Assembly (NCBI RefSeq): GCF_001447785.1
Contig: NW_015161963.1
Span: 781,600-845,599, forward strand
Origin: Gekko japonicus
Taxonomy: Eukaryota
Reading direction: 5' to 3'
DNA length: 64,000 bases
Each line of letters opens with the position of its first letter. The stretch's first letter is position 1. Shown here piece by piece: positions 32,495-63,873 of this stretch. Both the position numbers and the translations under genes were made by a program. The notes under the pieces are model-generated. The model was not told the DNA's origin. It saw only the letters and a list, made by a program, of their open reading frames with translations, and did not search any database.

Positions 32495-33530
32495 TTTTTT
32501 CTTTTTTTTAATTTATAATTTTTATTGAGATTAACTTTATAAATTTATAACAAAGATTACAATTGAAAGTAGACAAAATACAAATGGAAAACAAACATAT
32601 TATTGTAAGCTGTAACTCTGGTTGTATCATGACATTACTACTGTCTTAACATTTGTAATACAGATTTTCCTATACTTACTGTAGAGTTCCGTACAGAGCT
32701 TAAGTGATAACATTTATGAAATTTGAGAACTTCAGTATAGTAAATTGATAGAGTCCAGATAAAGAACTAAACCAGTGGAAATAATCGATAGTGAGCCATA
32801 TTTCAGATCCATTTATGAAATTGAGACCACCGAGAGGATACAAACTGCTACTGAGACAGGTAGTCTAAGATTGGATACCATTTCCCTGTGAATACCGATT
32901 GGTTTGAGTTTTGAGAGGTAACGGACAATTTGTTAGTGACTACGTCCATAAGATAGTGGTTCCATAATTTACTAAACCAGCTATTAATCCTTGGTGTTTT
33001 GACATCTTTCCAAAAAGATGCGATGGTTGTTTTGGCTGCATCTAGCATGATTTCAATAGTATCTTTGTGTGGTCTATTAGCAAGTTCCAGTGGCCACATG
33101 TTCAAAAATAAAACCTCTGGTTCGAATGGTACTTGCATCTTTGTGACCTCCTGTATAATTTTTAATATTTCTTTCCAAAATGACTGAATTTTAGCACATT
33201 TTCACCAGCAGTGGGAGAAATTCCCTACTTGGGAGCATTGTTTCCAGCATAGTGATGATTGGTTGTTTGCCATGTATGCAATTTTTTTAGGTGTTACATA
33301 CCATCTTGTCATTAGCTTCAGGTTTTGGAACTGCACCATTATAGATTTAGTTTTAAAACTGGAGGAGCTCCAAAACTTTTTCCATGTATCTTCATTCAGA
33401 GGTGTGACGCAATCGCTTTGTCATGCTTTCTGGTAGGGTTGTAGTGTAGTGCATGATTGTTGAAACAGTATTGAATAGAATTTAGATATTAATCCTCTAT
33501 TTTGACTCCCATTTTCTAGGGGGATCAGGA
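32495..33530 (-). mobile_element. L1-clade LINE 3' fragment
   Basis: Minus-strand ORF2 C-terminal remnant (CWKQCSQVGNFSHCW zinc knuckle; AAKTTIASFWK...W), then AATAAA and an A-rich tail. Confidence 0.75.
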
Positions 33531-37400: not shown

Positions 37401-40400
37401 CAGCATAACTCTGCCTAGGATGGCACTGTGTAGCACTTTGTGTTTTCTTTGTACACTTTAGATCCCCCCCCGTATAAAACTCACTTAGTCTGCACTAATC
37501 TTATAAAATTTTAGTGAACTCTTATTAATAGGAAACATAGTAATGAAATGTCTTTGTACGTTGCTGACTGTTCTGTTTTTTTGAGCATTACAGTTTATGT
37601 TTCTGTACAATGCTCCGCTTTCATGTACCATAATTCATATTTCTGCCTTCTGTGGTGTTTTGTTACTCACACTAACGACATATACCATATATGTTTAAAC
37701 ATTATTTGACTAGTCATTAGTACATTTTATGTTCACATTATTTGTTTTATATGTGCATTATTTACTATTTGCTTTATAAATGTTTATAATCTCGGGTGCT
37801 TTGCACATCTCCTTCTCTTTTCCATTCAGAGGTTTCTTTTCCTTTTTTGTTAATAATCTATTATGTCATACGTTAACATCTGTTGATGTATATCCACTCC
37901 CTTAACTTTTTCTAGCTGGTCCATGAATTGAGATTAAACAAATCTGAGTAACTGAGTATCCAGTGACAAAGAAGGAAAAAGAAATCAAAACTGGCTGTGC
38001 AAAAAAATGTGCACTGTTTCCCCGTCCGAAGCTGTACAATCCCCAGAGGAAACAGCATCTATTTGATTTCAGGTTTTGGCCTGAGTCAGTAACGATGCTT
38101 TCAGCTGACTGCTGCTGATGGGTGGGGGCCATGGGGGTATTAATGGCTTTGTAGATTGCATCCATGAAGCTCAGAGCTTCAATTTTCTCTCAAAATAATT
38201 GGGCTGGATCCAGCCAGCTTCCTCACTAAACCTTGCCCTAGTTATTACAGCCCCTCTCAAAAATGGCTTTTGTACCTACTGGTTGCCCAATCCCCGGTAT
38301 GGCTTTTTCTGGTGCTCTCCCTTTTTCACCAGCAGAGAAGCTGCTTGGATCCAATCTATGTGAGGTACAGAGATGGCTCCATTCTATAGACTTCACCAGT
38401 TCTTTTTGCTCATTCAGAAAGTACCCCTTACCTCTCAGGAGGATCATTCTGAGGGTCACTCCTAGTTTGAACATTCCAGCCTCTCCACTCCTTCCTACTT
38501 TCAGAACCATCTTCAAATTTCCCTGCTATTTATGTATTTGTTGGTTATTCCATTTTTTTTCCTCCTTAGAGCGACGGATTACATACCTAGTCTCTCCACA
38601 GCCCCCTACTCCCCCATTTGACTCTTGTAACAATCCTGCAAGGTAGGCTAAGCTGAGAGAGAGAGAGTGACTGGCCCAGCATCAGTCACCCATTGAGTGA
38701 CATGGCATAGTTAGGATTTGAATCTTGGTCTCTGCAGTCCTAATTTTACACTCTGGGCACCGCACTGACTCTCTCAAGGCCAAAGTTGTGACTCTTTCCT
38801 GGGCAGCTCTTATCTGTTGTGAAGGTAAACTAGATGCACTATTGACTGTAACTGCAAGTTATTTAAAGGATTGCAAAGCCTTACTCTGAGGGCAAACAAC
38901 CAGGGAGCAGGCCGTTATGCTTCATTCCCAGAGACATTTGGCTGGCCTACTGCTGGAGATGGAGGCCGAATTCTTCCAAGCAGCAGATGAGGAGGTGAAG
39001 CTGTTCTGGACTGTACCACTTCAGGGTGCGGGGCGGAGTTCACAAGATTGAATGCCCCTTCACACCAAACTATTCCTTTCCCCTTGGAAGCTAGCATGTA
39101 AGGAAGACGCATTCCAGTGTGACCTTTACCTGGGCATGCTAGTTTTCTCTCCTAGGATTGGGGTGGGGAAACATTCCATCATGAAAACCCACCTGTATTG
39201 TCTGAAGTGGTATAGCTCAGGTACAGGTTTACCACCACCAAGGCTGTTTGGTCCGACATCGGACAATGTTGTGTTCTTTGCTCCTAGTTCTCTCATGTCT
39301 CCCATGTTCCCCATTTTAGGGAGCCAAAGCTGTGGCTCTTTCTCTGGCAAACAATACGTCTGTTGTGAAGTTAAATTTAAGTGACAATTGGCTGAACGAA
39401 GATGGGACAGCTGCAGTGGCAGAGATGTTAAAGGAAAATTGCTACATTTCAGGTTTGCTCCTTAATTTCATGGGTCTGAGAAGTGCTTTAGGATAGCAAA
39501 GTATTAGACACTCAAACAGATGCTGAGATGCTTTTGCTTGACTTGTGGGTCCCTTTCAGCTAAATTTCTGGAGATTAGGCTTCGCTTCACAATAAAGTTT
39601 GAGCAGCTAAACATGAAGAAGACTCAGAAAGGTTGTGGTCTGTGTTCCGTATTCTTTGGGGGTTTTTTTGGGGGGGGGGGAAGGTTTGTGCTTGCTTTCA
39701 AGAATCTAGGAGGTACAGCAAAGTATTAGACACTCAAACAGATGCTGAGATGCTTTTGCTTGGCTTGTGGGTCCCTTTCAGCTAAGTTTCTGGAGATTAG
39801 GCTTCACAATAAGGTTTGAGCAGCTAAACATGAACAAGACTCAGAAAGGTTGTGGTCTGTGTTCCATATTCTATGGGGGCTTTTTTGGGAGCCGGAGGCT
39901 AAAAAACGGTGAGCTAGCTCACACTAACTCAGCTTAGAGGGAACACTGATTGGGTGTGTGTGTGTGTGTGGTTAAAAGACTGATTGTCTAGGAGACCAGT
40001 CCCTTTGGGAGGAGGGCTCTTCAACTGGCTTCCAATTCTGACTAGTCAAGAAATTAATAGAAGACTGTGGAAAGTGAAGGAAATAGACCTGGGACCAGAT
40101 GAGGATACTTACTTTCTGGTAGGACTAAAGGCTGGTGTTCTTCTCCCACAGATATTGATTTATCTGAGAACAGGCTGGGGATGAAAGGGGCCAAGGCCCT
40201 GTCTGCTGTGCTTCAGGAAAATACCACACTAGTGACCCTGAAGCTCTCAGGAAATGAATTAAATGACCAAGCGGCCAAATATCTAGCTGGTGCCCTCCTG
40301 ACCAACAATAAACTGGAATCTCTTGATCTAAGTCATAATGCCTTCGGGGAGTCAGCAGGTAAAAGTGTTTCTCTGGCAGTGGCAGGTACCTGTTGCATTA

Positions 40401-43400
40401 AAGGGATGGGCAGTGTTTAGGGGAAGGATTTGATAGAGGGAAAGCAGTTCATGAGACAGTGGCTATAGATGCTCCATCCAGGGCAGAGCCAGGAAAATTA
40501 GAATGATGTGACCTGAGTTGGCCAGCAACTGCCCCCAACTGTATTAAGTGCATTTGAAGCACTAATAGTGCTGGGTGTGTATTACCTTGGCCTTTTATTA
40601 TAACTGTAAAAACTGAAAAAGCAATACATTCACTCTCTTCTGATTCCCATCCATTTCTAGTGTTTGGGGTGGGGGACTGAGTTATGTTAGAGCATTTCCC
40701 AGTGGATCATGTTGTTTCATTCGTAGGCCAAAGATATTTGTGTTAGGCTCCTAATTGAGTACAATTGAAAGCTAGCAACTAGCTTCCTGTTCTGCCTGAA
40801 GAAGACTTCTGTGCAACTTGAAGGACTGCATACCCTTTCACAGATAGAAGGGAATCCAGAAAAGGCTTGACCTGTTTTGTTTATTTGGGGCCATGTGCTA
40901 ACGTTTGTCAATATTCTCTTCAGAATGCAGGTGCTGAGGTCATCTCTTCCTCCTGCACTGGACCAGCTTCATTTCTTTCCTCCAGCTGTTCAGTGTCCAC
41001 ATCGTGCTTGTACCTTGTGCTCCAAGGCCCACCTGCTCTCTCCATTTCATGCACTTGGTTTCTTTCGCCTTATGTTTCCCTTGTTGAACAACCTTGCTGC
41101 TGGGAGACCCCTCCTTTGCCCTGTGCACAGAAGGAGCCTTACCTGGCTCCTAATCAGGTGCCCCATTCCACCTTACCTTTTGNNNNNNNNNNNNNNNNNN
41201 NNNNNNNNNNNNNNAGAGTGAGGGCAGGCCCAGGAAAGAGGGAGGAACAGCTCAGTGCAGGAGCAAGTTTAGTGCACAGAAGAAACAAGAGGAAAGGGGA
41301 AACGTGAAGGTAGGATAGTAAAGAAAGTGATTTTCTAGGTGTCTCTATTGAAATGGGGCAAAACAGCCCAGGAAAGGGAACCTACCACCATCACCGCCAC
41401 CCCTTTGCCTTTAAAAACATTTTAGTCCACACCACAATTGTGACAGTATTGCTGCTTTCTAGAAACCCAAGCTTCTTGAACTCCCAATTCTGCACAGTCA
41501 GTTGGCTTCTAGAATTTGTCCAACTGGAGCCACCAGAGCAGCCCTAGTCTTCTCATTGCCACCATCACCACCACCCCTTTGCCTTTAAAAACATTTTAGT
41601 CCACACCACAATTGTGACAGTATTGCTGCTTTCTAGAAACCCAAGCTTCTTGAACTCCCAATTCTGCACAGTCAGTTGGCTTCTAGAATTTGTCCAACTG
41701 GAGCCACCAGAGCAGCCCTAGTCGTCTCATTACCTGAAGCAGGCAGATGAATCCCCTCCCTTCACTGATATGAGGAATGAGTCCGTCTTCTTTGCAAGCA
41801 TCCTCTCATGCATATATGCAGCTCCTGCTCACTTCTGTGGGGCTTGGCCAGGAGAACTGCCCAGCAGATTGCGTCCACCTCTCTGGCTTGGCTTGCTTTC
41901 AGGAATCCTCTGAGATGTTTGCACCATTGGCACTTTTCCTGCAGCACATCTTTTCTCCTTGCCTCATTCCTTCCCCTGTTTCACCCCCTTCCTGTTTTGA
42001 GACTGTTGAGCCACCCTAACTTCAGGGATCAGAAAGCCTCATTCTCCTGTTGAGTTCAAATATGACAGCAACCATGCATGTTATCATAAAGTATTGGCAG
42101 GACACTTTGGGCAGAACTTATGGGGAGGTTTCTTGGATGTTTCTGAAGATCTTACCTGCTTACCTTTCCATTTCCTTGTGATCTGCAACATTTATTTTTT
42201 TTCCAGGTGAGGTGCTTGGAGCAGCGATAGCAGAAAATGCTGGCATGAAAGAGCTCGATCTCAGCTGGAACTGCTTCCGGGGCAAAGGAGCTGTTGCTGT
42301 TGCCAAAGGTTTGGGGGTAAGCACTGCACTCTTCCCATCATCTCCATCCTGCTAAGCTTTCCTTCATTGTTTAATTTGGTTGCAATGGCAAAACTTTATG
42401 GGAGTGTTTACTACTGATGGGGTCAGGGCCGGCCTGAGGGGTTTGTGCGCCATAGGCGAGGCCACCTTGTGGCGCCCCCTCAGATGCCAGCCTCCTGGTG
42501 GGGCCTGGAGATCTCCCAGCTAGGTGCCTCGGGGGGGGGAGACAGAGTGACGCCACGTGATGCGCTGGCTGCACGCGTCGCTTTAGACCGGGAGCACGGA
42601 AGGATGAGGGAGTCTGCGTGCTTCCTTCGCGGGCTCCTTTTCCGGCCAGGTGGGGTGTGAGACGAGCTCCGCGCTGGGCCTCCCCCTGGGACCGCCGAGC
42701 CGGTTCTCTTCACGCTGGCTGGCGGAGAGGAGGGAGCGCGGGGAGCCCCGCCGCCGGGGCCCGGAGAGAGCGCCTGCTGCCCTGGGCCTGGCTGAGCCAC
42801 CCTAACTTCAGGGATCAGAAAGCCTCATTCTCCTGTTGAGTTCAAATATGACAGCAACCATGCATGTTATCATAAAGTGTTGGCAGGACACTTTGGGCAG
42901 AATTTATGGGGAGGTTTCTTGGATATTTCTGAAGATACCTGCTTACCTTTCCATTTCCTTGTGATCTGCAACATTTTTTTTTCCAGGTGAGGTGCTTGGA
43001 GCAGCGATAGCAGAAAATGCTGGCATGAAAGAGCTCGATCTCAGCTGGAACTGCTTCCGGGGCAAAGGAGCTGTTGCTGTTGCCAAAGGTTTGGGGGTAA
43101 GCACTGCACTCTTCCCATCATCTCCATCCTGCTAAGCTTTCCTTCATTGTTTAATTTGGTTGCAATGGCAAAACTTTATGGGAGCGTTTACTACTGATGG
43201 GGTGTTCTGGTTTGGAAATACACAAGTCAGCCTCGCTATTGTGTCTTGGAAAGCATTTGGAGAATTCACATTTCTAGAGGATTTGTGTATCAAAAGGGTC
43301 ACTTCAGTTGAGAGATTCTGTGGTCAGCATTGCATGGATTTACGAAAGTCTTTCAGACAGTCAAATTTCTGGGAAATGTGAAGGTGTCTTGGGGGAATTG

Positions 43401-46400
43401 GTTGCTACCAGGATTCTTGAATGAAAAGGTGGTCTGAATTTGAAAATCTGTGTTGCCAAATTCTATATCCTATGGCATAAAAATACATTTTTTCATTCAG
43501 AAATAACTGTTAGCTGTAAAATCCATAAAAATGCCTTCACCAAGCTTTCCAGAGATGATTTCTGAGTAGATTCTTTGCTGTATCCCATCTGATACCCAAG
43601 GGACTATCAAGTTTGACCCAACAAGGACAAGGTACAGGCAAAGGCAGTTACAATACCAGAAAGTATGGCCTAAAGAAGAGACCTAATGGAAAGACAGACC
43701 CTGTGGCTTAATTTTCTGGGAACGGGTGCTGAAATTATGAGCTGTGTGCCCCAGGAGAGTGCTCAAGTCTGGAGACACCAGCTTTGACTCATTGAGTGTG
43801 ACCCATTAGAAGCGTCATAACCAAGGGTGCTTTCTGCTCAAATGAGTTTGAGTGGAATCCAGTGATCTGTGCAGCTTATTAGTCCAAATCTCCCTTGGGT
43901 TTTGACACTCCCTTGCCACAAATGAAGAGGGAAAGTAGTCCACCAGACACTTCTCCTGGGCAACCTCACTGAAATCAACAAGGGTTTTTTCATTGCAGTG
44001 GCGCTTGTGCTGAAGAACTTTGGGGCAGCCTCTGCTCATGGGCAAGCTTTTTCTCCTGTACCTGTAATGGCAACTCACATTTGTCATTTAAGGTAGTAGC
44101 TTTCCCTTGCCTCTGGTGGGTGAGGTGAGTTTGCTTTCAGTTACCATGCATTACAAGGAAGAAGAAGAAGAAGAGTTGGTTTTCTGCCCCACCCTTCACT
44201 ACCCAAAGGAGTCTCGGAGCACTTACAATCACCTTCCCTTCCTCTCCTCACACAGATACCCGGTGAGGTAGGTGGGGGCTGAGAGGGCTCTGAGAGAACT
44301 GTGACTGACCCAAGGTCACCCAGCTGGCTTCATGTGGACAAGTGGGAAATCAAACCTGGTTCTCCAGATTAGAGTCCGCCGCTCTTAACTACTACACCAA
44401 GCTGGCTCTTTGTGTAGTGTCGACCAGCAAGGTCCCCAGGTCTGTGCTTGCTGTCTAACATCTGCACAGTGCTCCTGGTACAGTAGCATCACTTCTTGTA
44501 AAGGGTGAGGATTACAGTAAACGTTGGCTGTTCAGATTGATGCAAAGTGATGGCATGCCACTGTGGGAGTGAAGCTTGCAGTACACTACCACTCCCTTAC
44601 AGTGTCATGTACTGAACAGAGCCAGAGCCTTTCTCACAGGACAGTATGGTCTATGGTTTCTCCATCTGTTGCAAGCAGCAGCATGAGAAGCATCAGGGCT
44701 CAGGTGCCAAAGAGCATGGTCTTGGTACGGCTCTTGAGTCCTGCAGGTCTTGCCAAAGCTTGATGAAAGCCATTTCCCTCCCCAGCGATGCCATCAGGGC
44801 TGGACCTCAGGGCAGAACACCAGGTCACCAGAAAGCAGGCTCTAGGTTTGCATTTGAAGTACATGTTCCCCTCTAAAGGAGGGTCTTCATAAGACTGTTA
44901 AGTTCAGAGTGTAAAATGAGCTAATCACACCACTGTCCCTTCCTCTTCAGGCAAACATATTCCTTCGGGTATTGGATCTCTCCTACAATGGCTTTGGCAA
45001 CAAGGGAGCTGCTGCCTTGGGCGAGGCCCTGAAAATCAACAATGTGCTGGAAGAACTTAATGTTGGGTAATAACATTTTAATGTGTGCACGCCTCTTCTA
45101 GAGAGTTCAGAGTTTTTTCTCAATACTTATTACAACAGCCCTCTGATGTAGATCATTATTTCTGTCCCCTTACTGTACCTGGGCAGCCAAAGGGAAGGCC
45201 TCTTGACTTGCCATAGGGCCATGGGTGTGTTCGTGAGTGGACTGCAATTTGAACTGGGGACCTGTTCAGCTCGCGCTCATAGCCATGACATTTTAAATGC
45301 CGTGCGTGTAGATTGCATAATGCCTCTTTTTATTGCAGAATTTGGATTCCCTTAGTACAGAATGTTGCCCCCCCCCCTTTACAGAGCCTTTTCTACAGCA
45401 TTGCCCAAGGGCAGGTCATCTGCAGCTCTTTGGGGACTTCACCCTGGGCATCCTAGATCCCAGTCCAACACAATGGTTAGGGCACCTTCCCTGTGCTCAA
45501 AAACAGCCTTGTCTACAACAGTGGCCAGACTTTCTGAAACAGCGCTCCAAGTAGTGCATCCGCATCCAGTCAGAGCTGATCAAAACTGTGCTAAAATGCA
45601 GTGGTGAGATCTGCAGCACTTGCTGCCAGTGTTCCCTCTAAGCTGAGTTGGTGTGAGCTAGCCCACAGTTTTTTAGAGATTTTTGTCTCAGCTCGGGAAG
45701 GATGGCTCCAGGGCAGACTAATTCATGCAGTAGCCAAATCGCTGGCTCACAACTTTAATGCCAGTAGCTCACAAAGAAGAATTTTTTCTCACAAGACTCC
45801 ACAGCTTAGAGGGAGCATTGCTTGCTGCTAGGAAGAGAAACCTGCAAAAGCAACAGAATTAACACACTACTATCAGTAGAGCTGTAGCCCCTCAGTAGCA
45901 GATCCTGGACCTCCTATAGCTGCAATGGCAAGTTGGTCTTCTGGTGCTTGACAAGCCCCCAGACAGATAGCATCAATGCCTCCCCCTCTTCCCTGATTCA
46001 GCTGGCCCCTGGCTAGCAATCAGGGACAATTCTTGGTTGAATTGAGTGGGAGAGGCAGTTGGATGGCTGGGGAGTCACAGTTTGCCCAAATCCTCCTTCA
46101 GTCTCCTGTACATAAACCTAATAAGTGATGGGAATAGTTTAGGGCAAAGTGGATATCTGGGTGGCAGCAGCAGGGGGAGCCAAGACAGTTTAGGAATGGA
46201 GCTAAGGGGAATGAGATGCTTTTTCTGGAAGTACATAAACCTAATAAGTGATGGGAATAGCTTAGGGCAAAGTGGATATCTGGGTGGCGGCAGCAGGGGA
46301 AGCCAAGACAGTTTAGGAATGGAAGGGAATGAGATGGATGGCTGCTCCTCAACTGAAGGATTCTAGATGGAACAGCTTAGCTAGTATGCAGAGGTCTGAC

Positions 46401-52586: not shown

Positions 52587-55500
52587 TCATCTCTTTGCTT
52601 CTTCTTCTTCCGCTGTTTCATCCAATCCCTGAGATGGCTGCATGCTGGGCTGAACCGTTTGGACGGTCTCTTCTAGGCTGCTGCTGGGGAAGACCACGTA
52701 GCGGGCACTGATGACTTGGCCCTGGGACTCCCGCAGGTTCTCTTTGCTGTGCCGGATGCCATACCCAAAGTAGACCAGCAAGCCTAAGGCAAAGAGGGAC
52801 AGCAAGAGTAAAAGTAAACCCAAACATATCACCATAGGTCATAATCACACCATGACCCCTTTGTGCAGGCCCATAACTGGATCATTTATGGTGAGGAGCA
52901 TGAAGGTTGCAGGGAGAGCATAAGTTAATATGAAACAGGAAAAAAACCTTTAGTCCAATATTATTACAAATTATTAATTTGAATTTAATTGGATTTTTAA
53001 GTGCCAGGTATCCAGTTGCTCCTTGGGGTAGGGTTGCCAACTCTGGCATCGAAAATTCCTGGAGTTTTGGGGAGGATGGAGTTTGGGGAAGGACAGAGCA
53101 CCATAGCTTTGTAATAATATGTCCTGACTTCTGTGATGTCACATCCGGATTAAAGGTCAGCTCTTGCATCTCCTCTTTCTGTGAGATCACTTCCTCCTAC
53201 TAAAACTCATTTTAAACATAAATTTCCCATCTCATATCACCCCCACATTTCCCCCCATCTTGCATCACTTGTAGGTTATTGTATGTATGTGTTCTGTATG
53301 TCATACTAACCTTTTTGGAAGGGCTGTAGCGCAGTGGAAGAGAATCTGTTTGGCATGCAGAAAGTCCCAGGTTCAATCTATGGATCTCCAGTTAAAAGGA
53401 TCTGGCAGTAGGTGATATGAAAGACCCTTTTCTGCCTGAGACCCTGGAGAACCACTGCCAGTCTAACTAGACAATACTGTCCTTGATAGACCAATGGTCT
53501 GATTCAGTATAAGGCAGTTGCATGTGTTCATGTTGCTGGAAGATACACAGAAGCTGAATATGTATCAGCTGCACAAGGTTGTCAAGAGATACAGCGGCTG
53601 CGCCAGCTACTGACAGATCCAGGTATAGATGTACCACAACCCATACAAGTATATGAAGACAACCAAAGCTGCATTCATCTGTCTAAACAAGAAGATGTGA
53701 ACATATGCCCCAAGCACATTGACAAGGTATCACCTAGTGAGAAAACTGCAAAAGGAAGACATCATCAAGCTGATCTGTTGTCCAACAGGAGAAATTATTG
53801 CAGACGTTCTCACTAAGCCACTTCCTAGAAATCACTTTGAAGATCTAAGAGAAGATGAACTGTGAGCGAAGTCAGGAGACATTGAGAAGGGGTGTTGGAA
53901 GATTAAGGACTATACGCTGTCTCTTAGCCTCAGCATTCAGAGGGGGTACAATAGAGTCAGCGAGATAGATGGGCTCAGGACACTGACCATCCTTTCTTTC
54001 TCTCTCTGATGCTTTCAAACAGATGGTTATTCTTAGGGGAAAAGACTTCCTTCCTGACACCTTCTCTCTCACGCACACACTTTGACAGATCTCTCCATCT
54101 TGGCATCATGGATGCAAGACATTCTTCCTGCATCTGCATCCATCCTAGTTAAATTAGAAACTATCCTGTCTCTACTCTTTCCTGTCTATAGAATGGAGCT
54201 CTATAAATAAAGAAACTCATATTAGTTTGCAAATATGAAAGAGGTTCCATGAAACATTATTTTCTTATTAGCACACACACAGAGACTGGAGACACTTTGC
54301 TGCATGGTAAGCCTTGTGCACACTGCTAACTTGCTAATATTCCAGAGAATATGACACGTGCCCTAAATACATGTGTTGATATAACTGGCTGCTATCCAGT
54401 TTTGTTCCATTCAAAAACACCCCCCAACCCCCTCTCAAGTCCTCTTTAGTTTTCTTTATGTGTTAATTCTGAAGAATCATAGGAAGTCGTCAGCCAACAG
54501 CAGTCGATCCCTCTTTCAATTCCCAACTGGCCCTTTGCCTTGAATGTCTTTACAGGTAACAACCAAGTCCTTACAGAGGCCATAAGAGAAGCATAAGTCC
54601 TAAAGCATTCACCCTCTGTAGCCACTCCAGGATTTCTGAGCCCACCCGCTGAAGCTGCCATTTTCTTCAGGGGAACTAATCTCTGCAGTCCAGAGATCAG
54701 CTGTAATTTCAGGATAATTCCAGGCCCCACTGGTAACCCTATCTGGAGCTCTAGATTCTAGAGTAATCACTGATTAATATTCTATTTACAAAACAGGGAT
54801 TATTTCTGTCCAATGTAGCATTAACTGACTGAGTCATTTTCCACTGTACAGACATATAACCACTACCTCATTAGTGACAATAACAATATTGCAATCAGCT
54901 CTATGGTAGGTAACAGACGGAGGCATCTAAGCAGCTGGAGTATATAAGGACAATAATGCTGAAGTGGAGATGCATCATTCGGGGGGGAAAAATGAACCTG
55001 GTTTCAAGATGAGGAGAGGAAAGAGGGAAGATGGCAAGGCCAGAGAGGAACGTGCTAATAAAACACTACTAATTCAAGATAGAAAATGCTGCAGAGTTTT
55101 CTCAGGAACGTCATCTCGTGTTTGGCTAGTAATTTCTTCTTACATTTTTAACAGGTTAACATTTCAGTAGGAATGTAGAGCCATGAGAAGACCGAGAGAA
55201 CAAATGAAAAGACCCATAAAATGTAAAACAATGACATGGAACTCCTGTCATATACCCAGTGAAGAGAGACTGGCCTATAGCCTTGCAACAAGCTGCAACT
55301 TTGTCAGTACTCAGTGGGTGCGTTCAGACGGGGCATTTGCAACGGTATAGGTGCCGGTTGGAATTGGTGTACTTACCGGCGTTCACACGGCGAACATCTG
55401 CATTTCGTCCCTAACCGTTACAAAGAGCTTTACACCGTTGTATTCTGCCACTAGGTCCCCAAGTGGTGGTATCCTGAGTGCAACGGGTGTAATCGCTTTA

Positions 55501-57956
55501 CCCCCCCGTCTGATCGCTCTCTAACGTTGTAGAGCCACTTCCGTTCGGAAGCCCGAGGCTTCCGATTTTCGCCCGCCATTTTTTTTTGTTAGGTCGCCGA
55601 TATGCGCTTGGGCGCAATTTCACCCTGGCGTTTGTTTTTTTAAAAAAGAAAAGGTCCTTAGTTTAAGGTTTTGGAGGACTCCAAGACCTCAGGGAGGCCA
55701 GTTTGGTATTTAAACTTTAAAGGTAAGTCCTTACCTTTAAACTTTAAATGTAAGATGGGGTGTTTTGCGCATGCGTGAAGATCGCCATTCTGTGGATGGC
55801 TGCCTATGCGCATGCTCAAACTGAGTTTAAAAAAACCACACCAATGCCCGCTGCATGTGAACGGGCATACAGCGATGGGCTCTGCAGACAGAAGGAAAGT
55901 GTTATCGCATTTCAGCCGGCATAAACTGCACCGGTTCCAACCGGTACAGTTTATGCCAGCTGAAACGCCCTGTCTGAACGCACCCATTATGTCTCAAAAT
56001 TCTTCTCCTAAGAGAAGCTGCAGGTGGTATCCCTGCAGTAGTGTTCAAAGCCGGGCTGGGAAAGGCAGGGTGGTGGAGAGAGGGCAGAGGGTGATGGGGT
56101 ACAAAAGTGGGCGGCAGTGCCAGAGTCCCTCTGACTGCAAGTCACATCCAGTGCTCCCTCTAAGCTGTGGAGTCTTGTGAGCAAAAATTCTACTTTGTGA
56201 GCTACTGGCATTAAAGTTGTGAGTGAGCGATTTGGCTGCTGCATAAATTAGTTTGCTCTGGAGTCATCTTTCCTGTGCTAAGACAAAAACCTGTGAGCTG
56301 GAGGCTAAAAAACTGTGAGCTAGCTCACACTAACTCAGCTTAGAGGGAACACTGGCATCCCTCATTCTGGAATCTCACCCACCTAATACCAAGTCGTCGT
56401 GGTTATGGTAAAGTGAGGGAAAACCATTCTGCACACGTCTAGGAGTATGCCTGTTTGCAGTCTTGCACCACTGAAAAAATGAACTGTCATCTTCCTTTTC
56501 ATCTGGTAGTTAGAAGTACTGGGACTTAAGCCTGCCTGAGCAGCACTGCCCTCTTCAGTTGATTAGCCCTAATTTTACATTTTGGGAGAGGTAAATATAT
56601 GCATTGACAGAGGCTATTAATTGGTGAATAAAGAGCACATGCTCAGATTCACATATTCCTTCACCAAAACAACAAAACCATGCAATGGTTTTTGCTAGGA
56701 CCAACCACAATGACATAAAGGTTTCCCTTGCTCAAAAGCCAGTCGAATCCAACTCTAGGGGGTGGTGTTCATCTTCATTTCCAAGCCGAAAAGCCAGCGC
56801 TGTCCGAAGACGTTTCCATGGTCGCGTGGCCGGCATGACTAAACGCCGAGGCACACAGAACACTGTTACCTTCCCACCGAAACGGTACCTATTTATCTAC
56901 TTGCAATTTCTTGCTTTTGAACTGCTAGGTTGGCAGGAGCTGGGGCCAGAGATGGGAGCTCACTCTGTCATACAGCACGATGGTCTCAAACTACACCCAT
57001 CATTCCCATAGTTACCCTCATCGAGCTGTGGCAGTGATATAGCATTCTTGATGATAGGCGAGATGGCAGGAGGTGTCAGTAAGGCCTCATCATTATTTCT
57101 GCTTCCCCAGTTCCTTAGTGAGCTCTTCCTCACGTGCCTGGGTGTCCAGGCAAAGACGCTATTGGGTTTGGCTGCCTCGCCACCATGGTTTCTGAGGAAG
57201 GAAGTGTCCCCAAAGGCATCTCCACCATGTCCGACATGCATGGTATGGTAGAAGTCCCCCAGTGGTGGACTGATCATGTCTGGTGTCAGATCTCCTTTCA
57301 GGTGCCGCTTGTTGTGGGAGCGGATACCCAACTGATTACTGGCAGCTTCCCAAGACTCATATCTTAGCCTCTTTGAAGCCCTCTCTCAGAAACTGTGTAT
57401 TCTGTCCCTCATATCAGGTGGGCTTCACTTGGGCAGTGGTGATGATGTGGGGTACACGTCTTCTGTATTCTGTCCCTCATATCAGGTGGGCTTCACTTGG
57501 GCAGTGGTGATGATGTGGGGTACACGTCTCAGAGATCAGTCTCAAACTGCTGAGCTACAGACCTTCTGGTCTGCAGCTCAGCGTGATAACCTCTAAGCCA
57601 CCGTGGCCCCACAATGACATAAGCCAATAGCAAATTTTCAAATTCTCTAGAACATTTCATTAGGCTGAACTCAAAAAAGCGTCTGCTTTTTTGGATATTG
57701 CGTCAGACCCCTGCAACATTTTTCTGCTTTGAGAATAATTCTTCATACAAGCCAGGTACTACAAGGTGACTTTCAAGCAATGATGAAAAAAACAAACCAA
57801 TCAGCCACCTGGCCGAATGCTCCCAAGCACTATTTCCCACCTCCTCATCCCAGTCCCCTGGCCCAACTTACTCCTCAAGCCTAACTGCAGATAAATGTAG
57901 CTCTTAGTCAGATTTTCTGCCCCGTACTTTTGTTGTCATTGCTAATGTTCAGGGGG

Positions 57957-57999
<43 letters not shown>

Positions 58000-60900
58000 A
58001 GCAATGGAGAAAAGATGATGAAACAAAACAGAGAAGAATGGGTCCCAGTCAATAAAGGGTTAACTGTCCAGCAGCCCTGCTCTCTTTCAGCCTCCCTTCC
58101 TCCTCATTTGCAAGGCAATTGCGAAAAGGCAGGTTGCACATTTCCACTGGTGTCACTACGAAAGGGCTGGAGGCTTTTCTTTAAAATGAAAGCAGGACCT
58201 CCGGAGAGGTGAGGCTGGCATATTTCTAAGAGGGCTATTCCCCTACCTACCCCCATAGCTACAGGCTGAACAATGTGGCAAATAAATAAACATATAATGC
58301 AGCACAACAGGATTCCACGAGCTAGAAGGAAGCAGGAAGAGCAGCACTTCAGCTCTAACTAAAGACAAAAGTAAACCACCTAGCCGACCAGGAAGGGTTC
58401 GTCAATCATTTACTCAGGTCCCCCAGACAGCCTGAGACAATCACTCCCAGTTAGCTTACAAAAGCATGCTGCCCTAGTGATTAAATGGCAGGGGTAGCCT
58501 GGGCTCCAGCAGCAAGGGACAGCCTCTGCAGCTTGTCAGCTTAAAAGGGCACCTGGACAAAACACTATACTTCACCAAACAGGTGGTGGTGGTAGAAAAT
58601 GTGTCAAGCAGGGTTGCCAAGAGCCACCGTGGGGCCCCCAGACAAAGTTTCCACCTCGGCCTCTCCCCATATGACCCTGATCCAAGCAAAATATCATAAC
58701 AAAACAGTGTTCCCTCTAAGCGGAGTTACTATGAGCTAGCTCACAATTTTTTAGCCTCCAACTCACAGATTTTTGTCTTAGCTCAGGAAGGATGGCTCCA
58801 GAGCAAACTAATTTATGCAGCAGCAAATGGCTTGCTCACAACTTTAATGCCAGTAGCTCACAAAGTAGAATTTTTTGTACACAAGACTCCATAGCTTTGA
58901 GGGAATATCACTTGGCTGGCTGTTACCACGCATCTATAATAATAGAAGCGTCTGCATGTCCATCTGTTTGTCCATTTGTGGCAGGCATAATGCATCAGGA
59001 ATCTCAAAATTGGTCACTAGCTTCAGAATGATTATGGGAGTTCCAAGGCCAAAAATGAAAGGAATTGGAATATCCTGGACAAAGTTAGCTCCAGGAACCC
59101 CCCTCCCTGCTATTTGCTGTTCAGAGCAGGCCCGAGGCTTTTTAGGGCACTAGGCGAGGCTAGCTTGTGCCCCCCCCCCGCGAGGCTGCCTTTGGCGCCC
59201 CCCCTCATTGCACCCCATTTTCTCCTGCTCCTCTGAGTCTCTGAGTGTGAGTGAGGAGTGGGGGGGAGGAGGAGAGGGAGAGGGGTTTCGCAGGGAGCTT
59301 TGCTCGCACTCGGCTTGCGCTGCCGGCTGTCAGTCCCAGTTCCTGCACCACGTGACCTTCTGGTAGAGCCACTGAACAGAACGAGGCTGGCAGGGAGGAG
59401 CGGGAAGAGGGAGGGGAGGGGGTGAGGAGGAGGTGGGTGAAGCAGGCGGGCGCACTGACCATTTTGCAAGTGCCTGCCTGGGACAAGGCTGAGGCATGGT
59501 GCGCGCAAGGTGCCGGGGCCATTCCTCTCCCGTGTGGTGCCTTTCGGACAACGGGAGCCCTGCTGCGGGGGAGGTGAGGCTCTCCTGTGCCACCTTCCCC
59601 CTCTCACCTGTGAGCCTCCAGGGGGAGGGGCCCCTGGCCAGGAGAGGTGCCGGGACTGGATGGGTCTGAGCAAGCCATGCGAGAGGCAGCGCCGGCGAGG
59701 CGGAGGGGGAGTGCGTGGCGGCTGGTGCAGCGGGAGGCTGGAAACTCCCTTCCTCGGTTGGCAAATAGAGGCAGTGATGGCCAGGGCACGCGGTGCAAGC
59801 CTTTGGTAGGGGCGGGGGAGGGTGGCTCAGTGCGGCGCCCCCATGATGACCCCGTGCTCTAGGCGAGAGTCTAGCTCGCCTAGTGAGCGAGCCGGCCCTG
59901 CTTCTGTTCCTCACATATTACCAATAAAACAGATTAACATTCTGTAATTATGTATGTAAAGGGTAAGGGGAAGCATCTTTTTATGTCTTTGGTAGATTAT
60001 AGGGAAATATTTACTCCCCCCTTCTGTTCATAATATTATCAAAAGTTTGCTGCTATACTACTACTAAATATGTTCTAAATTGCCAAACTGAGAAGGAATC
60101 AAGACCAAGAGTGGAAAAAAAGAGTGGGAATAGAAGTGAGGATATAGGAATGGCTGATCGTGAAAAGAAGAGAGCAAAATGAAGGAGGAGAAAAGTGTAG
60201 GAAAGAATGAGAGAAATTAAGAAAAAGACAACAAATTGTTGTTTGTTTGCTACCACACTAACAGGGCTGCCCCTTTGCAAGATCTGGGTGTACAGACAAA
60301 ACTATGGAGCTGGAACTAATGGAATTAATTATAGACCGATATCTCCTTATTAGGAGGCTGCACCCTGGCAATGGCCGTAGCTTATCCTAGCTGGTTTTGC
60401 CTTTCTCCAGTGTTGGCTTGGCTGCTGGGTTTAGAAGGATCTGAGAAGCAAGGGTTTCTCTCAGACTCCTAGAATCAGAGCAACTCCTACCTGCTGTGCT
60501 TGTCCTTCCCTTTGCCCTTAGTGGCTGCAGTGCAGAAGTGCATTGGGGTGAAAAAGTAAATGCATCCTATGACTAAAGCATGACCTTGGCTTCAGGGGTC
60601 CTCTAACTGACTAGGGCCCCTGGAATCCCCCCCCAGGCTCCCCCTCTTGAAAGCCCTGCCATCAAGTTGAAGCATGGTGACCCCATAGGATTTTCAAGGC
60701 AAGAGATGTTCAGAGGTGGTTTGCCATTGCCTGTCTCTGTGAAGAGACCCTGGACTTCCATGGTGGTCTCCTATACAAATACTGACCAGGGCCGACGCTG
60801 ATTAGTTTCTGAGATCGGATGAGATCTGACTAGCCTGGGCCATCCAGGTCAGGCCTACCAAAAAGGAAAATGTTCAGTGAGCTATTTGTGCAAAGAAAGA

Positions 60901-62373: not shown

Positions 62374-63873
62374 ATGGGTTCTCTCTCAACATCCATTTTC
62401 AAAGAGCCGAGGTACAGCAGCCGGTCCCCAACTCACCTACAATCAGCCAGACAGAGAAGCGCAGCCAAGTCATGTAGTTGAGTTTCAGCATGAGGTAGAC
62501 GTTGAGGAGGATGCTCAGGGCTGGAGTCAGTGGTACCAAGGGTAGCTAAAGGGGAAGAGAGGAGACCAAGGTGAGATGGACGGGCTGTACCAATTCATGG
62601 GCCTTTCAACAGAGTTTAGCTGAAAGAAGATGGAGGCTCCCAGCGGTTGCTCTTCTAAATACCTTCTCTGGAAATGCAACATGAGAATTTTCCCAAGTGG
62701 AGTGGTTTTTGATGTCCAAGGGCTGCTCCCTACTGCAACAGGGAACATATCTCATTTGCTGAAGGAAAAAAGTTTGACAGCTGGAACACAACCAGTGAAG
62801 AAAGAAGTCTGTGGCCAGGAGTCAGTGAGGGGGCAGGCTTTCCAAGGGCATGCTGGGGTTTTTTTGAGGGAACTGATGCTGCTCTGCAGACTCTAAAACC
62901 AGCAATCCATTCACAGCTTACCTACTAATGAGCATAGCAGCTTACTGTTTCCCATGATCAAATTCTGGAAAAACCATGGAGTGAGAATCTGCACTCAAAC
63001 AGAGCTGGTGGCAAAGTTGTCCTGTGTCTGCCTCACCAGAAACAGACTTCATGACAAAAACACATATTTCCCACTGTGGTGGCTTGAATTTGCTGCCTCA
63101 GTAGGAGAGGAGAATGGAAAGGGGAGGGGCCTGCAAAGTATTTAGGGGGTCAGATGTCTTGCAAATCCCTTATCAGGCTTTGGCCCCGGTTACCTGGAAT
63201 GTCTGGCTTTTTTTTTGCTGCTCGTGAACCCCGATGAGAAGCAAGCTGAAGACAAAGGCCAGGCTGAAGAGCACAATCAGCAAGCTGTAGCTCCAGGTGG
63301 GCAGGTGAAGCTGGTTCTTCCCAAACACCAGGATGGAGGACAAGCAGAGGGCGGACACCATGAGGATGATAACAGCCACTGTGACCACTTCTCCAGGGTA
63401 GAAATCACTGAGGAAGTCCAAGTAAGGATCAAAGATGGCCTTGAGCTGTCCTGGTTCCCGCTGGCTTTTGGCTTTTTCCTTGCCTACCAAGTTCAGCTTG
63501 TCAGAGAAAGATTCATACTCTTTTGGTTCGCTGGCACCAATGGTCTCTGCAGATGCTGGTGGAGCATTCTCACTCTCTGAAGGTGGGTTCAAAGCCTGGG
63601 ACTTTGCCCGCTGGAAGCGCAGAACGATGACGCTGGCTGCTACAAAGGTGTAGGCCAAGAGAGTGCCGATGGACAGGAACTGGACGAGGGCCTCCAGGTC
63701 AAAGATGAAGGCCAGCACGGACATGAGAGTGCCAAACACCACAATGGCCACCACAGGGACTTGTGTCTGCGGATGTACACGTGAGAACACCTGGAAAAAG
63801 AGCCCATCCTCTGCCATGGCATAGACAATCCGCGGCAGAGAGAAGAGGTTGCTGAGGAGAACTGTGTTCATTG
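52587..63873 (-). CDS. SLC7A4: Cationic amino acid transporter 4 (CAT-4), last three coding exons; 5' part lies beyond the window
   Basis: Exons 63873-63194 ([27 protein letters not shown]...[17 protein letters not shown]...TFQ), 62545-62437 ([37 protein letters not shown]) and 52783-52587 ([15 protein letters not shown]...stop). GT-AG and in frame. Confidence 0.93.
53320..53532 (+). mobile_element. tRNA-headed SINE with CR1-like tail
   Basis: Head gggctgtagcgcagtgg...ccaggttcaatc; related minus-strand copies at ~13770-13970 and ~31310-31440. Confidence 0.6.
53547..54345 (+). mobile_element. Ty1/Copia LTR retrotransposon 3' remnant (RNase H, PPT, 3' LTR)
   Basis: TEAEYVSA...YEDNQSCI...KHID(frameshift)YHLVRK...IADVLTKPL; PPT GAGAAGGGG immediately before TGTTGGAA at 53893; AATAAA inside the LTR; right end approximate. 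Confidence 0.8.
55316..55985. mobile_element. Non-autonomous DNA transposon, PIF/Harbinger-like
   Basis: 19-bp TIRs GGGTGCGTTCAGACGGGGC / GCCCTGTCTGAACGCACCC; CpG-rich, with subterminal palindromes. Confidence 0.75.
56149..56354. mobile_element. ~200-bp hAT MITE (same family)
   Basis: Same TIRs and internal sequence. Confidence 0.8.
56719..57608 (-). mobile_element. Sauria-type SINE interrupted by the CDC42EP1 fragment
   Basis: ACCTTT-type tail and typical body (gtggccggcatgactaaac, gttaccttcccaccg, ggtacctatttatctacttgca, gaactgctaggttggcaggagctggg) at 56719-56992; head at 57549-57608; 14-bp TSD CCACAATGACATAA at 56705-56718 and 57609-57622. Confidence 0.85.
56993..57538 (-). pseudogene. 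CDC42EP1: CDC42 effector protein 1 (BORG5) 5' gene fragment, frameshifted and 3'-truncated
   Basis: ATG at 57360 gives [13 protein letters not shown], then a 1-nt frameshift into [41 protein letters not shown] (CRIB) ... [17 protein letters not shown] (BORG homology). Flanked by direct repeat GTCTCAAACT (56983-56992 and 57539-57548). Confidence 0.85.
57958..58000. repeat. (GAAA)n microsatellite
   Basis: Direct reading. Confidence 0.95.
58705..58908. mobile_element. ~200-bp hAT MITE (same family)
   Basis: Same TIRs and internal sequence, right end degenerate. Confidence 0.75.
59122..59900. mobile_element. hAT-type non-autonomous element (CAGGGCCGGC family)
   Basis: Termini CAGAGCAGGC / GCCGGCCCTG; degenerate 8-bp TSD TTGCTGTT/CTTCTGTT; related to the truncated copy at 42424-42792. 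Confidence 0.65.
60665..60855 (-). mobile_element. 5S rRNA-derived SINE (5S-Sauria-like)
   Basis: Minus strand reads gatctcatccgatctcagaaactaatcagcgtcggccctggtcagtatttgtataggagaccacc, a degenerate 5S internal control region, followed by a non-5S tail. Confidence 0.7.
62296..62371. repeat. Compound (TC)n(CA)n microsatellite
   Basis: Direct reading; ~65 nt into the last SLC7A4 intron from its donor site. Confidence 0.95.

What the first reader, a model, noticed from the sequence alone, without database searches (positions are those of the whole stretch)
56705..57622. Nested insertion: a 5'-only, poly(A)-less CDC42EP1 fragment inside a Sauria SINE
Seen: an outer 14-bp TSD (CCACAATGACATAA) brackets a Sauria SINE. 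Inside it, a 10-bp TSD (GTCTCAAACT, 56983-56992 and 57539-57548) brackets ~546 bp holding upstream sequence and the first ~120 codons of CDC42EP1 (CRIB plus BORG homology), in the same orientation as the SINE and as SLC7A4. Known: ordinary retrocopies are 5'-truncated and end in poly(A); this one is the reverse. Inference: either internally primed reverse transcription by a non-L1 LINE (RTE/Bov-B type enzymes use microhomology rather than poly(A)) targeted the SINE, or a SINE carrying host-gene cargo was mobilised as a unit, i.e. SINE-mediated gene-fragment transduction.
Basis: partly seen in the sequence, partly recalled or inferred. Interest (0 to 1): 0.7.

Follow-up and report, generated by a model that had tools for sequence, protein, structure and literature searches.

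The report
Tailless gene fragment inside gecko SINE
A broken 480-base piece from the middle of one exon of the CDC42EP1 gene sits, as a single copy, inside an ordinary jumping-DNA element in a gecko intron; it was likely pasted there once by a reverse transcriptase that started copying in mid-message, a known kind of accident, and no sign was found that the combination has moved as a unit.

Summary
The nesting is real: a 14-bp outer TSD around a minus-strand Sauria SINE, a 10-bp inner TSD (the SINE's B box) around 546 bp of CDC42EP1 sequence, in the last intron of the amino-acid permease gene. The 3' junction stands unchanged in two independent DNA runs. But the insert is not '5'-only': RNA reads put the parental exon at L002 987-2019 and the insert at 1492-1970, cut at both ends, wholly inside one exon, so the splice test cannot decide RNA versus DNA origin. 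68 of the 546 bp are a later, still polymorphic tandem duplication; a 1-bp deletion breaks the frame. Four own-genome searches give one locus with junctions. The inner site lacks the Bov-B/Sauria Tn-TA signature, which the outer site and 7 of 9 control SINEs show. Best reading: one-off, internally primed, tailless LINE retrocopy into a resident, already decayed SINE (0.55); rival: templated patch at a staggered break (0.33). A mobile chimeric SINE is not supported. Tailless, doubly truncated retrocopies are published, also from a lizard. The scan noted other retrocopies in this genome, none like this. Ordinary; interest 0.17.

The parts
56705..56718 (-). Outer TSD, 3' copy (Sauria SINE insertion)
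   Evidence: 14/14 identical to 57609-57622
56719..56982 (-). Sauria SINE 3' body and tail (one ACCTTT-type unit running into the TSD); two T4 runs at 56792 and 56737 that most copies lack
   Evidence: 89-91% identical to the 39 other best copies of 4389 candidates; alignment with 29 copies; T runs
56983..56992 (-). Inner TSD, 3' copy = B box with CpG decay (AGTTTGAGAC; commonest form AGTTCGAGAC in 16 of 29 copies)
   Evidence: junction 56947-57052 present with 0 differences in runs X1 and X2
56993..57360 (-). CDC42EP1 coding fragment, parental codons 1-123 with CRIB; 1-bp deletion near 57320 breaks the frame; no poly(A)
   Evidence: the deletion also stands in contigs of X1 and X2
57361..57538 (-). 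110 nt of CDC42EP1 5'UTR (parent L002 1492-1601) plus the 68-bp duplication; starts 505 nt inside the parental exon, with 3-nt microhomology (GAC) to the TSD
57396..57529 (-). Tandem duplication, two identical 66-nt copies with 2 nt between; arose after insertion (both copies share two insert-specific changes); apparently heterozygous in X1
   Evidence: joint 1566->1501 at depth 32 of about 70 in X1; depth model 124.7 vs 125.2 observed
57539..57548 (-). Inner TSD, 5' copy = B box left with the SINE head
57549..57608 (-). Sauria SINE tRNA-like head with A box
   Evidence: alignment with the full-length copies among 29; box assignment is recalled Pol III consensus
57609..57622 (-). Outer TSD, 5' copy; begins with T and has TTT 10-12 nt upstream (Tn-TA signature)
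   Evidence: signature from PMC13295347 section 11
52587..52785 (-).
   Evidence: translation
62439..62545 (-). Penultimate coding exon of the host gene; the element lies in the intron between this and the last exon
   Evidence: upstream exon hits AA_permease_2

Best explanation
It is a single, frameshifted, doubly truncated piece of one CDC42EP1 exon sitting in the B box of a Sauria SINE, likely made once when a LINE reverse transcriptase (likely L1-type, not the SINE's own Bov-B partner) primed inside CDC42EP1 RNA at a nick in a SINE that was already resident and decayed. Steps: (1) the SINE inserted by Bov-B-type retroposition (14-bp TSD and Tn-TA signature shown; enzyme inferred); (2) its B-box CpG decayed (shown in both TSD copies; timing inferred); (3) a staggered cut 7-10 nt apart opened the B box, cDNA synthesis began in mid-exon with at most 1-3 paired bases, stopped after about 480 nt and was joined through 3-nt microhomology (junctions shown; RNA template and enzyme inferred); (4) the piece decayed neutrally: 22 substitutions and a 1-bp deletion in 466 aligned columns, then a 68-bp duplication that still segregates (shown). 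It is predicted to be non-coding and immobile.
For: One junction-bearing locus: DNA search 4 matches = self, its own duplication, parent, and a 265-bp contig without junctions; protein search 7 matches = parent, insert, that contig, 4 paralogues at 41-61%; 5' junction pattern 1 hit, self; 3' pattern 2 hits, the second a chance 17-mer with unrelated flanks. Inner TSD duplicates SINE-internal sequence, so SINE DNA was the target. Both copies share the CpG-decayed form that 8 of 29 other copies have; one decay before duplication (0.28) is about 3.6 times likelier than two after (mild). 5' junction: 3 exact bases, 5 of 6, reached by 1.9% and 0.9% of exon positions; 3' junction: 0 exact, 3 with G:T wobble (2.4%). 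A TSD without deletion of target is a mark of target-primed insertion (PMC5322556, PMC5110952). TSD-flanked 5'/3'-truncated tailless forms are common in human and tailless forms were found in the green anole (PMC5322556). L1 ORF1-type sequences exist in this genome (29 matches to PF02994 among 150 scored of 2149 candidates). X1 depths fit exactly two loci, parent and insert (102 modelled vs 100.7). In organism C (X7) a contig joins the SINE head to the orthologous right flank, and the parent exon is one unbranched 3118-nt contig, while it is split into short pieces in X1 and X2: a hint that the SINE is older than the insert.
Against: RNA origin is not shown: the insert lies inside one exon and spans no splice junction. 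The target is not L1-like (CAGC/AGTT or GATG/GTCT versus TT/WAAAAWW). At the simplest 3' breakpoint there is no exact complementarity and the next four RNA bases are predicted paired; the single-stranded AAA (1976-1978) and a 5-of-6 match at 1978 need one or two slips and such a match lies within 8 nt of 6% of breakpoints. The better microhomology is at the 5' end, which fits break repair, or an antisense template, as well. Divergence does not separate the ages of SINE and insert (non-CpG 14/295 vs 12/438, p 0.16; CpG 9/40 vs 10/28, p 0.28). No contig spans an uninterrupted SINE at this site in a relative.
Confidence: 0.55

Rival explanations
1. Templated patch at a staggered double-strand break in the resident SINE: a repair polymerase copied about 480 nt from the CDC42EP1 locus (or from its cDNA), and fill-in of the overhangs made the 7-10 bp duplication.
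For: Insert colinear with genomic DNA; short microhomology at both junctions; no L1 or Bov-B target motif; no poly(A). Experimental templated insertions are 73-414 bp with microhomology (PMC5110952, parts 1-2 read).
Against: Class 2 templated insertions are described as having no TSD and often microdeletions (PMC5110952); here the target is duplicated with no loss. That staggered breaks can give small duplications is recalled; one search listed papers that I did not read.
Confidence: 0.33
2. Same one-off retrocopy, but made by the Bov-B/RTE enzyme that mobilises Sauria SINEs.
For: The family was active about then (SINE 4.7% non-CpG from the majority of 29 copies, insert 2.7% from parent); the TSD starts with A as Bov-B TSDs do (PMC13295347); TSD length is in the range of control SINEs (9-15 nt); 2 of 9 controls also lack TTT.
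Against: No TTT at -16..-7 and no TA at the cut on either strand, against 7 of 9 controls and the outer site (background 14.5%, p 4e-5 for the controls). Bov-B recognises partners through a shared 3' tail (PMC5322556 introduction), which the insert lacks.
Confidence: 0.08
3. A chimeric SINE carrying the CDC42EP1 piece was assembled elsewhere and retroposed here as a unit, or has produced daughters (SINE-mediated transduction).
For: The duplication left an A box plus B box upstream of the insert, the insert has no T4 run on the sense strand, and the SINE tail is in place. Up to 2 insert-type RNA reads among 82 laid in X21.
Against: No source or daughter copy; nearest SINE bodies only 89-91% alike; both B boxes carry the CpG change; two T4 runs lie before the tail; X1 depth fits two loci only; 0 insert-type reads of 81 at site 1842 in X22, and the element is in a sense intron, so rare reads need no own promoter.
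Confidence: 0.03
4. Assembly chimera.
For: Fragmented assembly (191,500 contigs); perfect 66-nt duplication looks like a gap-filling error.
Against: 3' junction identical in contigs of two other samples, 46 and 60 nt on its sides; duplication joint seen in X1; insert differs from parent at 23 of 466 columns, many of them shared by X1/X2 contigs. The 5' junction was not seen among the listed pieces.
Confidence: 0.01

Closest known systems
Tailless retropseudogenes (Noll et al. 2015, PMC5322556; 3'-truncated snRNA copies, Doucet et al. 2015, PMC4476161)
   Same: TSD-flanked, no oligo(A), 3'-truncated; 5'- and 3'-truncated forms from long RNAs are reported as numerous; found in the green anole.
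   Different: Target is not TT/WAAAAWW; 3' complementarity is 0 exact or 3 with wobble; RNA origin cannot be shown; target is a SINE B box.
Templated sequence insertion polymorphisms, class 1 and class 2 (Onozawa and Aplan 2016, PMC5110952)
   Same: A few hundred bases copied from a distant intact locus into the germ line; TSD of at least 5 bp as in class 1; microhomology and no poly(A) as in class 2.
   Different: Lacks the poly(A), signal and TTTT/A site of class 1; has the TSD that class 2 lacks. Insert appears fixed or common rather than a rare polymorphism (present in 3 of 3 individuals of organism A counted with the window's own).
Sauria SINE mobilised by Bov-B (Nakatsuka and Ohshima 2026, PMC13295347)
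   Same: Outer element: ACCTTT-type tail, TSD starting with T, TTT about 10 nt upstream.
   Different: Interrupted at the B box by a host-gene fragment; the inner insertion lacks the signature.
Gene-fragment transduction by composite retroelements (SVA, L1 3' transduction; recalled, no call)
   Same: Host sequence between the head and tail of a non-autonomous element, inside one outer TSD.
   Different: Those are multi-copy families with a source locus; here one copy, with its own inner TSD, showing a separate insertion.

Membership tests
Sauria SINE (outer element) | High-copy family, about 335 nt, tRNA-like head with A and B boxes | tested here: met
   4389 candidates, 40 scored, all matched; alignment with 29; box motifs recalled
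Sauria SINE (outer element) | (ACCTTT)n tail | tested here: met
   copies end in ACCTTT repeats, this one in a single unit; feature from PMC13295347
Sauria SINE (outer element) | Tn-TA insertion signature | tested here: met
   TTT at -12..-10, TSD starts TTA
Sauria SINE (outer element) | 3' end shared with Bov-B LINE; match to the Repbase/SINEBase consensus | not tested
Tailless retropseudogene | Flanking TSD | tested here: met
   10 bp (7 without microhomology)
Tailless retropseudogene | 3' truncation without oligo(A) | tested here: met
   ends at parent 1970 (or 1975-1976), 49 nt before the donor
Tailless retropseudogene | Target complementary to 2-18 nt of the RNA at the 3' end | tested here: inconclusive
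   0 exact, 3 with wobble; 1 exact on the slipped alignment
Tailless retropseudogene | Truncation at a single-stranded, A-rich region | tested here: inconclusive
   1971-1974 predicted paired; 1976-1978 AAA predicted open
Tailless retropseudogene | L1-type target TT/WAAAAWW | tested here: not met
   CAGC/AGTTTG, or GATG/GTCTCA on the other strand; hence 'works like', not filed as a member
Tailless retropseudogene | RNA template (spliced junction) | not testable with these tools
   insert lies inside one exon, L002 987-2019
Class 1 TSIP / ordinary processed pseudogene | Poly(A) tail, signal and TTTT/A site | tested here: not met
Class 2 TSIP | No TSD | tested here: not met
   7-10 bp duplication
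Class 2 TSIP | Junction microhomology, donor intact | tested here: met
   3 nt at the 5' junction; parent intact, 422 codons, spliced in RNA
Bov-B/RTE-made insertion (inner) | Tn-TA signature | tested here: not met
   absent on both strands; 7 of 9 controls have TTT
Mobile composite SINE | Several loci with shared inner junctions and different outer TSDs | tested here: not met
   1 locus; assembly is fragmented

The most novel reading that the evidence does not exclude
A non-L1 LINE enzyme (Bov-B/RTE, CR1 or L2) copied a host mRNA with no tail at all into a SINE's B box, and, because the duplication rebuilt the promoter and the cargo has no Pol III terminator, this made a transcribable SINE-head/gene/SINE-tail unit: a caught first step of SINE-mediated exon transduction, with daughters in unassembled DNA or in sister species.
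Probability: 0.04. Interest if true: 0.55.

Novelty: new member of a known kind. Interest (0 to 1): 0.17.

Why it matters
As it stands it is one dead insertion: useful at most as a lineage marker (SINE shared with a relative, insert seen only in organism A, duplication still polymorphic) and as one data point that geckos make TSD-flanked, poly(A)-free gene fragments at sites unlike the mammalian L1 consensus. It would matter if a genome-wide set showed a non-L1 LINE copying host mRNAs, or if daughters showed SINE-borne exon transduction; neither is supported by this locus.

Tried and rejected
Extra copies suggested by high insert depth in X2: rejected; X2's loose ends start at GATC, as in a proximity-ligation library, and X1 fits two loci. 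L003 (265-bp contig, insert-type at 6 sites then parent-type at 4): no junctions; X1 holds the same form, so it is read as the other allele or a merged path, not a daughter copy; a third junction-less copy is not excluded. L042: chance 17-mer. Absence of the insert in organisms B and C: only the parent contig covers 57032-57287 in X5 and 57032-57415 in X7, but contigs show presence, not absence, and none joins across the site; X7's left contig reaches 24 nt into the SINE tail, under the 31-nt rule; X5 has no cover at 57672-57991. No RNA holder listed. Splice test: uninformative. Age by divergence: no significant difference. Rfam: 1 match at E 4.8, chance. Tn-TA control: 11 of 29 copies gave an exact repeat of 8 nt or more, 2 dropped (L017, L034: 5' repeat 35-39 nt from the B box, inside the head), 9 counted; with all 11 the count is 8. 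A longer TSD with an 8-nt internal deletion explains nothing more than the 10-bp one. The protein atlas gave no answer.

Full report
Observation. Both direct repeats are at the stated coordinates and occur exactly twice in the window. Read on the minus strand the element is: 14-bp TSD, SINE head (57608-57549), 10-bp repeat, 546-bp insert, 10-bp repeat, SINE body and tail (56982-56719), 14-bp TSD. Twenty-nine other copies of the SINE, fetched from the 40 scored of 4389 candidates, are continuous across the site, and the 10-bp repeat is their B-box segment (the box name is recalled consensus). The chance of such repeats at fixed junctions is 1e-6 and 4e-9.

The insert. It matches one locus, G000:C2779 (L002), at 448 of 473 bases. 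That exon's protein is 98% identical to a named gecko cdc42 effector protein 1 and the top hits are nearly all CDC42EP1/BORG5; the parent is intact, 422 codons over two coding exons with a 5628-nt intron. RNA reads in X22 leave the genome at both ends of the exon (8 reads before 985, 27 behind 2020), which with the AG and GT sites puts the exon at L002 987-2019. The insert covers 1492-1970: 110 nt of 5'UTR and 123 codons. It therefore lacks the upstream exon(s), the first 505 nt of its own exon and everything 3' of codon 123. It differs from the parent by 22 substitutions and one 1-bp deletion in 466 columns; the deletion breaks the frame after codon 13-14 and also stands in contigs of X1 and X2. 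At 12 of the 13 listed insert sites the parent-type letter is shared by organisms B and C, so most changes fell on the insert. A 68-bp tandem duplication (57396-57529) accounts for the rest of the 546 bp; its joint is seen in X1 at about half depth and a heterozygous model gives 124.7 against 125.2 observed.

Is it real and is it single? The 3' junction is carried without a difference by 106-nt contigs in X1 and X2, with 46 and 60 nt on its sides; the 5' junction was not among the listed pieces. In the own genome, a DNA search gave self, its duplication, the parent and a 265-bp contig (L003) without junctions; a protein search added four paralogues; the 5' junction pattern hit only self; the 3' pattern hit self and one unrelated 17-mer. 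L003 is insert-like at six sites and parent-like at the next four; X1 shows the same form, so it is best read as the other allele or a merged path. X1 depth over 1537-1800 fits two loci (102 modelled, 100.7 seen). The higher depths in X2 come with loose ends at GATC, as in proximity-ligation data, and were set aside. The assembly has 191,500 contigs, so an unassembled copy cannot be excluded.

Order of events. An inner TSD made of SINE sequence means that SINE DNA was the target. Both copies read TTG where 16 of 29 copies have the intact AGTTCGAGAC and 8 of 29 have TTG: one decay before duplication is about 3.6 times likelier than two after, so the target was probably an aged copy and not a source gene. 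The SINE body also has two T4 runs before its tail that most copies lack, which would stop Pol III (recalled rule). In organism C (X7, flanks 7-9% diverged) a contig joins 36 nt of the SINE head to the right flank, and the parent exon lies on one unbranched 3118-nt contig, whereas it is split into short pieces in X1 and X2. This hints that the SINE is older than the insert; no contig spans the uninterrupted SINE, so it is not proof. Divergence alone does not separate the two ages (p 0.16 and 0.28).

Mechanism. At the 5' junction the parent and the TSD share 3 exact bases and 5 of 6 (1.9% and 0.9% of exon positions do as well); at the 3' junction they share none exactly and 3 with a G:T wobble (2.4%). 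A slipped alignment moves the end to a predicted single-stranded AAA with a 5-of-6 match two bases on, but it is post hoc and 6% of breakpoints have such a match within 8 nt. For the enzyme, PMC13295347 (abstract, sections 11 and 16 read) gives Bov-B and Sauria SINE insertions a TTT about 10 nt upstream of a TA at the cut. The outer site has it, as do 7 of 9 control copies with a recoverable TSD (background 14.5%; 2 further repeats dropped as internal). The inner site has neither part on either strand. It also lacks the L1 consensus. L1 ORF1-type sequences are present in the genome. So target priming is inferred from the clean duplication, L1 is the likeliest enzyme by precedent, and repair-templated patching remains a serious rival because RNA origin cannot be shown.

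Expression. Up to 2 of 82 laid reads in X21 carry insert-type letters (2 of 24 at site 1842); none of 81 at that site in X22. In a sense-strand intron this needs no promoter of its own.

Comparison. PMC5322556 (abstract, parts 1 and 3 of 5, and passages read) describes tailless retropseudogenes: TSD-flanked, no oligo(A), internally primed, with many 5'- and 3'-truncated forms from long RNAs, and detected in the green anole. PMC4476161 (passages) reports 3'-truncated U6 copies and U6 chimeras with L1, L2 and RTE in Anolis. PMC5110952 (parts 1-2 of 4) defines class 1 (TSD, poly(A), TTTT/A) and class 2 (no TSD, microhomology) templated insertions. This insert works like a tailless retrocopy but fails its target consensus and lies between the two TSIP classes, so it is not filed as a strict member of either. 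Searches (listings only) showed no paper on this locus; the library lacks most subscription journals and no supplements were opened. Earlier notes of this scan record other mRNA-derived insertions in this genome, unchecked here.

Verdict. Observation mostly right, with 'five-prime only' wrong. One-off insertion into a resident SINE: about 0.95. Enzyme: non-Bov-B LINE 0.55, break repair 0.33, Bov-B 0.08. Mobile chimeric SINE 0.03. Interest 0.17.

Noticed in passing
window 57396-57529: Perfect 68-bp tandem duplication inside the insert; real and apparently heterozygous in run X1.
   Followed up: yes
L003 = G000:C147502:1-265: Short contig, insert-type at six diagnostic sites then parent-type at four; same form in X1; other allele or merged path.
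   Followed up: partly
window 56148-56355 and about 58710-58900: Short element with 20-nt inverted ends (95% complementary) and very high depth in all four DNA runs; a second related piece near 58800; looks like a MITE.
   Followed up: no
window 59100-59900: GC-rich island (0.6-0.7) inside the last intron of the permease gene; could be a repeat or a promoter.
   Followed up: no
window 40103-40420: Plus-strand exon with leucine-rich repeats (LRR_6); LRRC74B by recalled synteny, not tested.
   Followed up: partly
window 32848-33201: Minus-strand ORF resembling the C-terminus of an L1/Tx1-type ORF2 (recalled; Pfam gave no support).
   Followed up: partly
window about 46050-46370: Translations repeat a block of about 45 codons, pointing to a tandem duplication of about 140 bp.
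   Followed up: no
L002:1140: All 21 reads in X22 show A where the assembly has C, in the 5'UTR of the parent; allele of that animal.
   Followed up: no
L045/L046 = G000:C4011:92909-95454: Two L1 ORF1-type open frames (368 and 405 aa) 2.3 kb apart on one strand.
   Followed up: no
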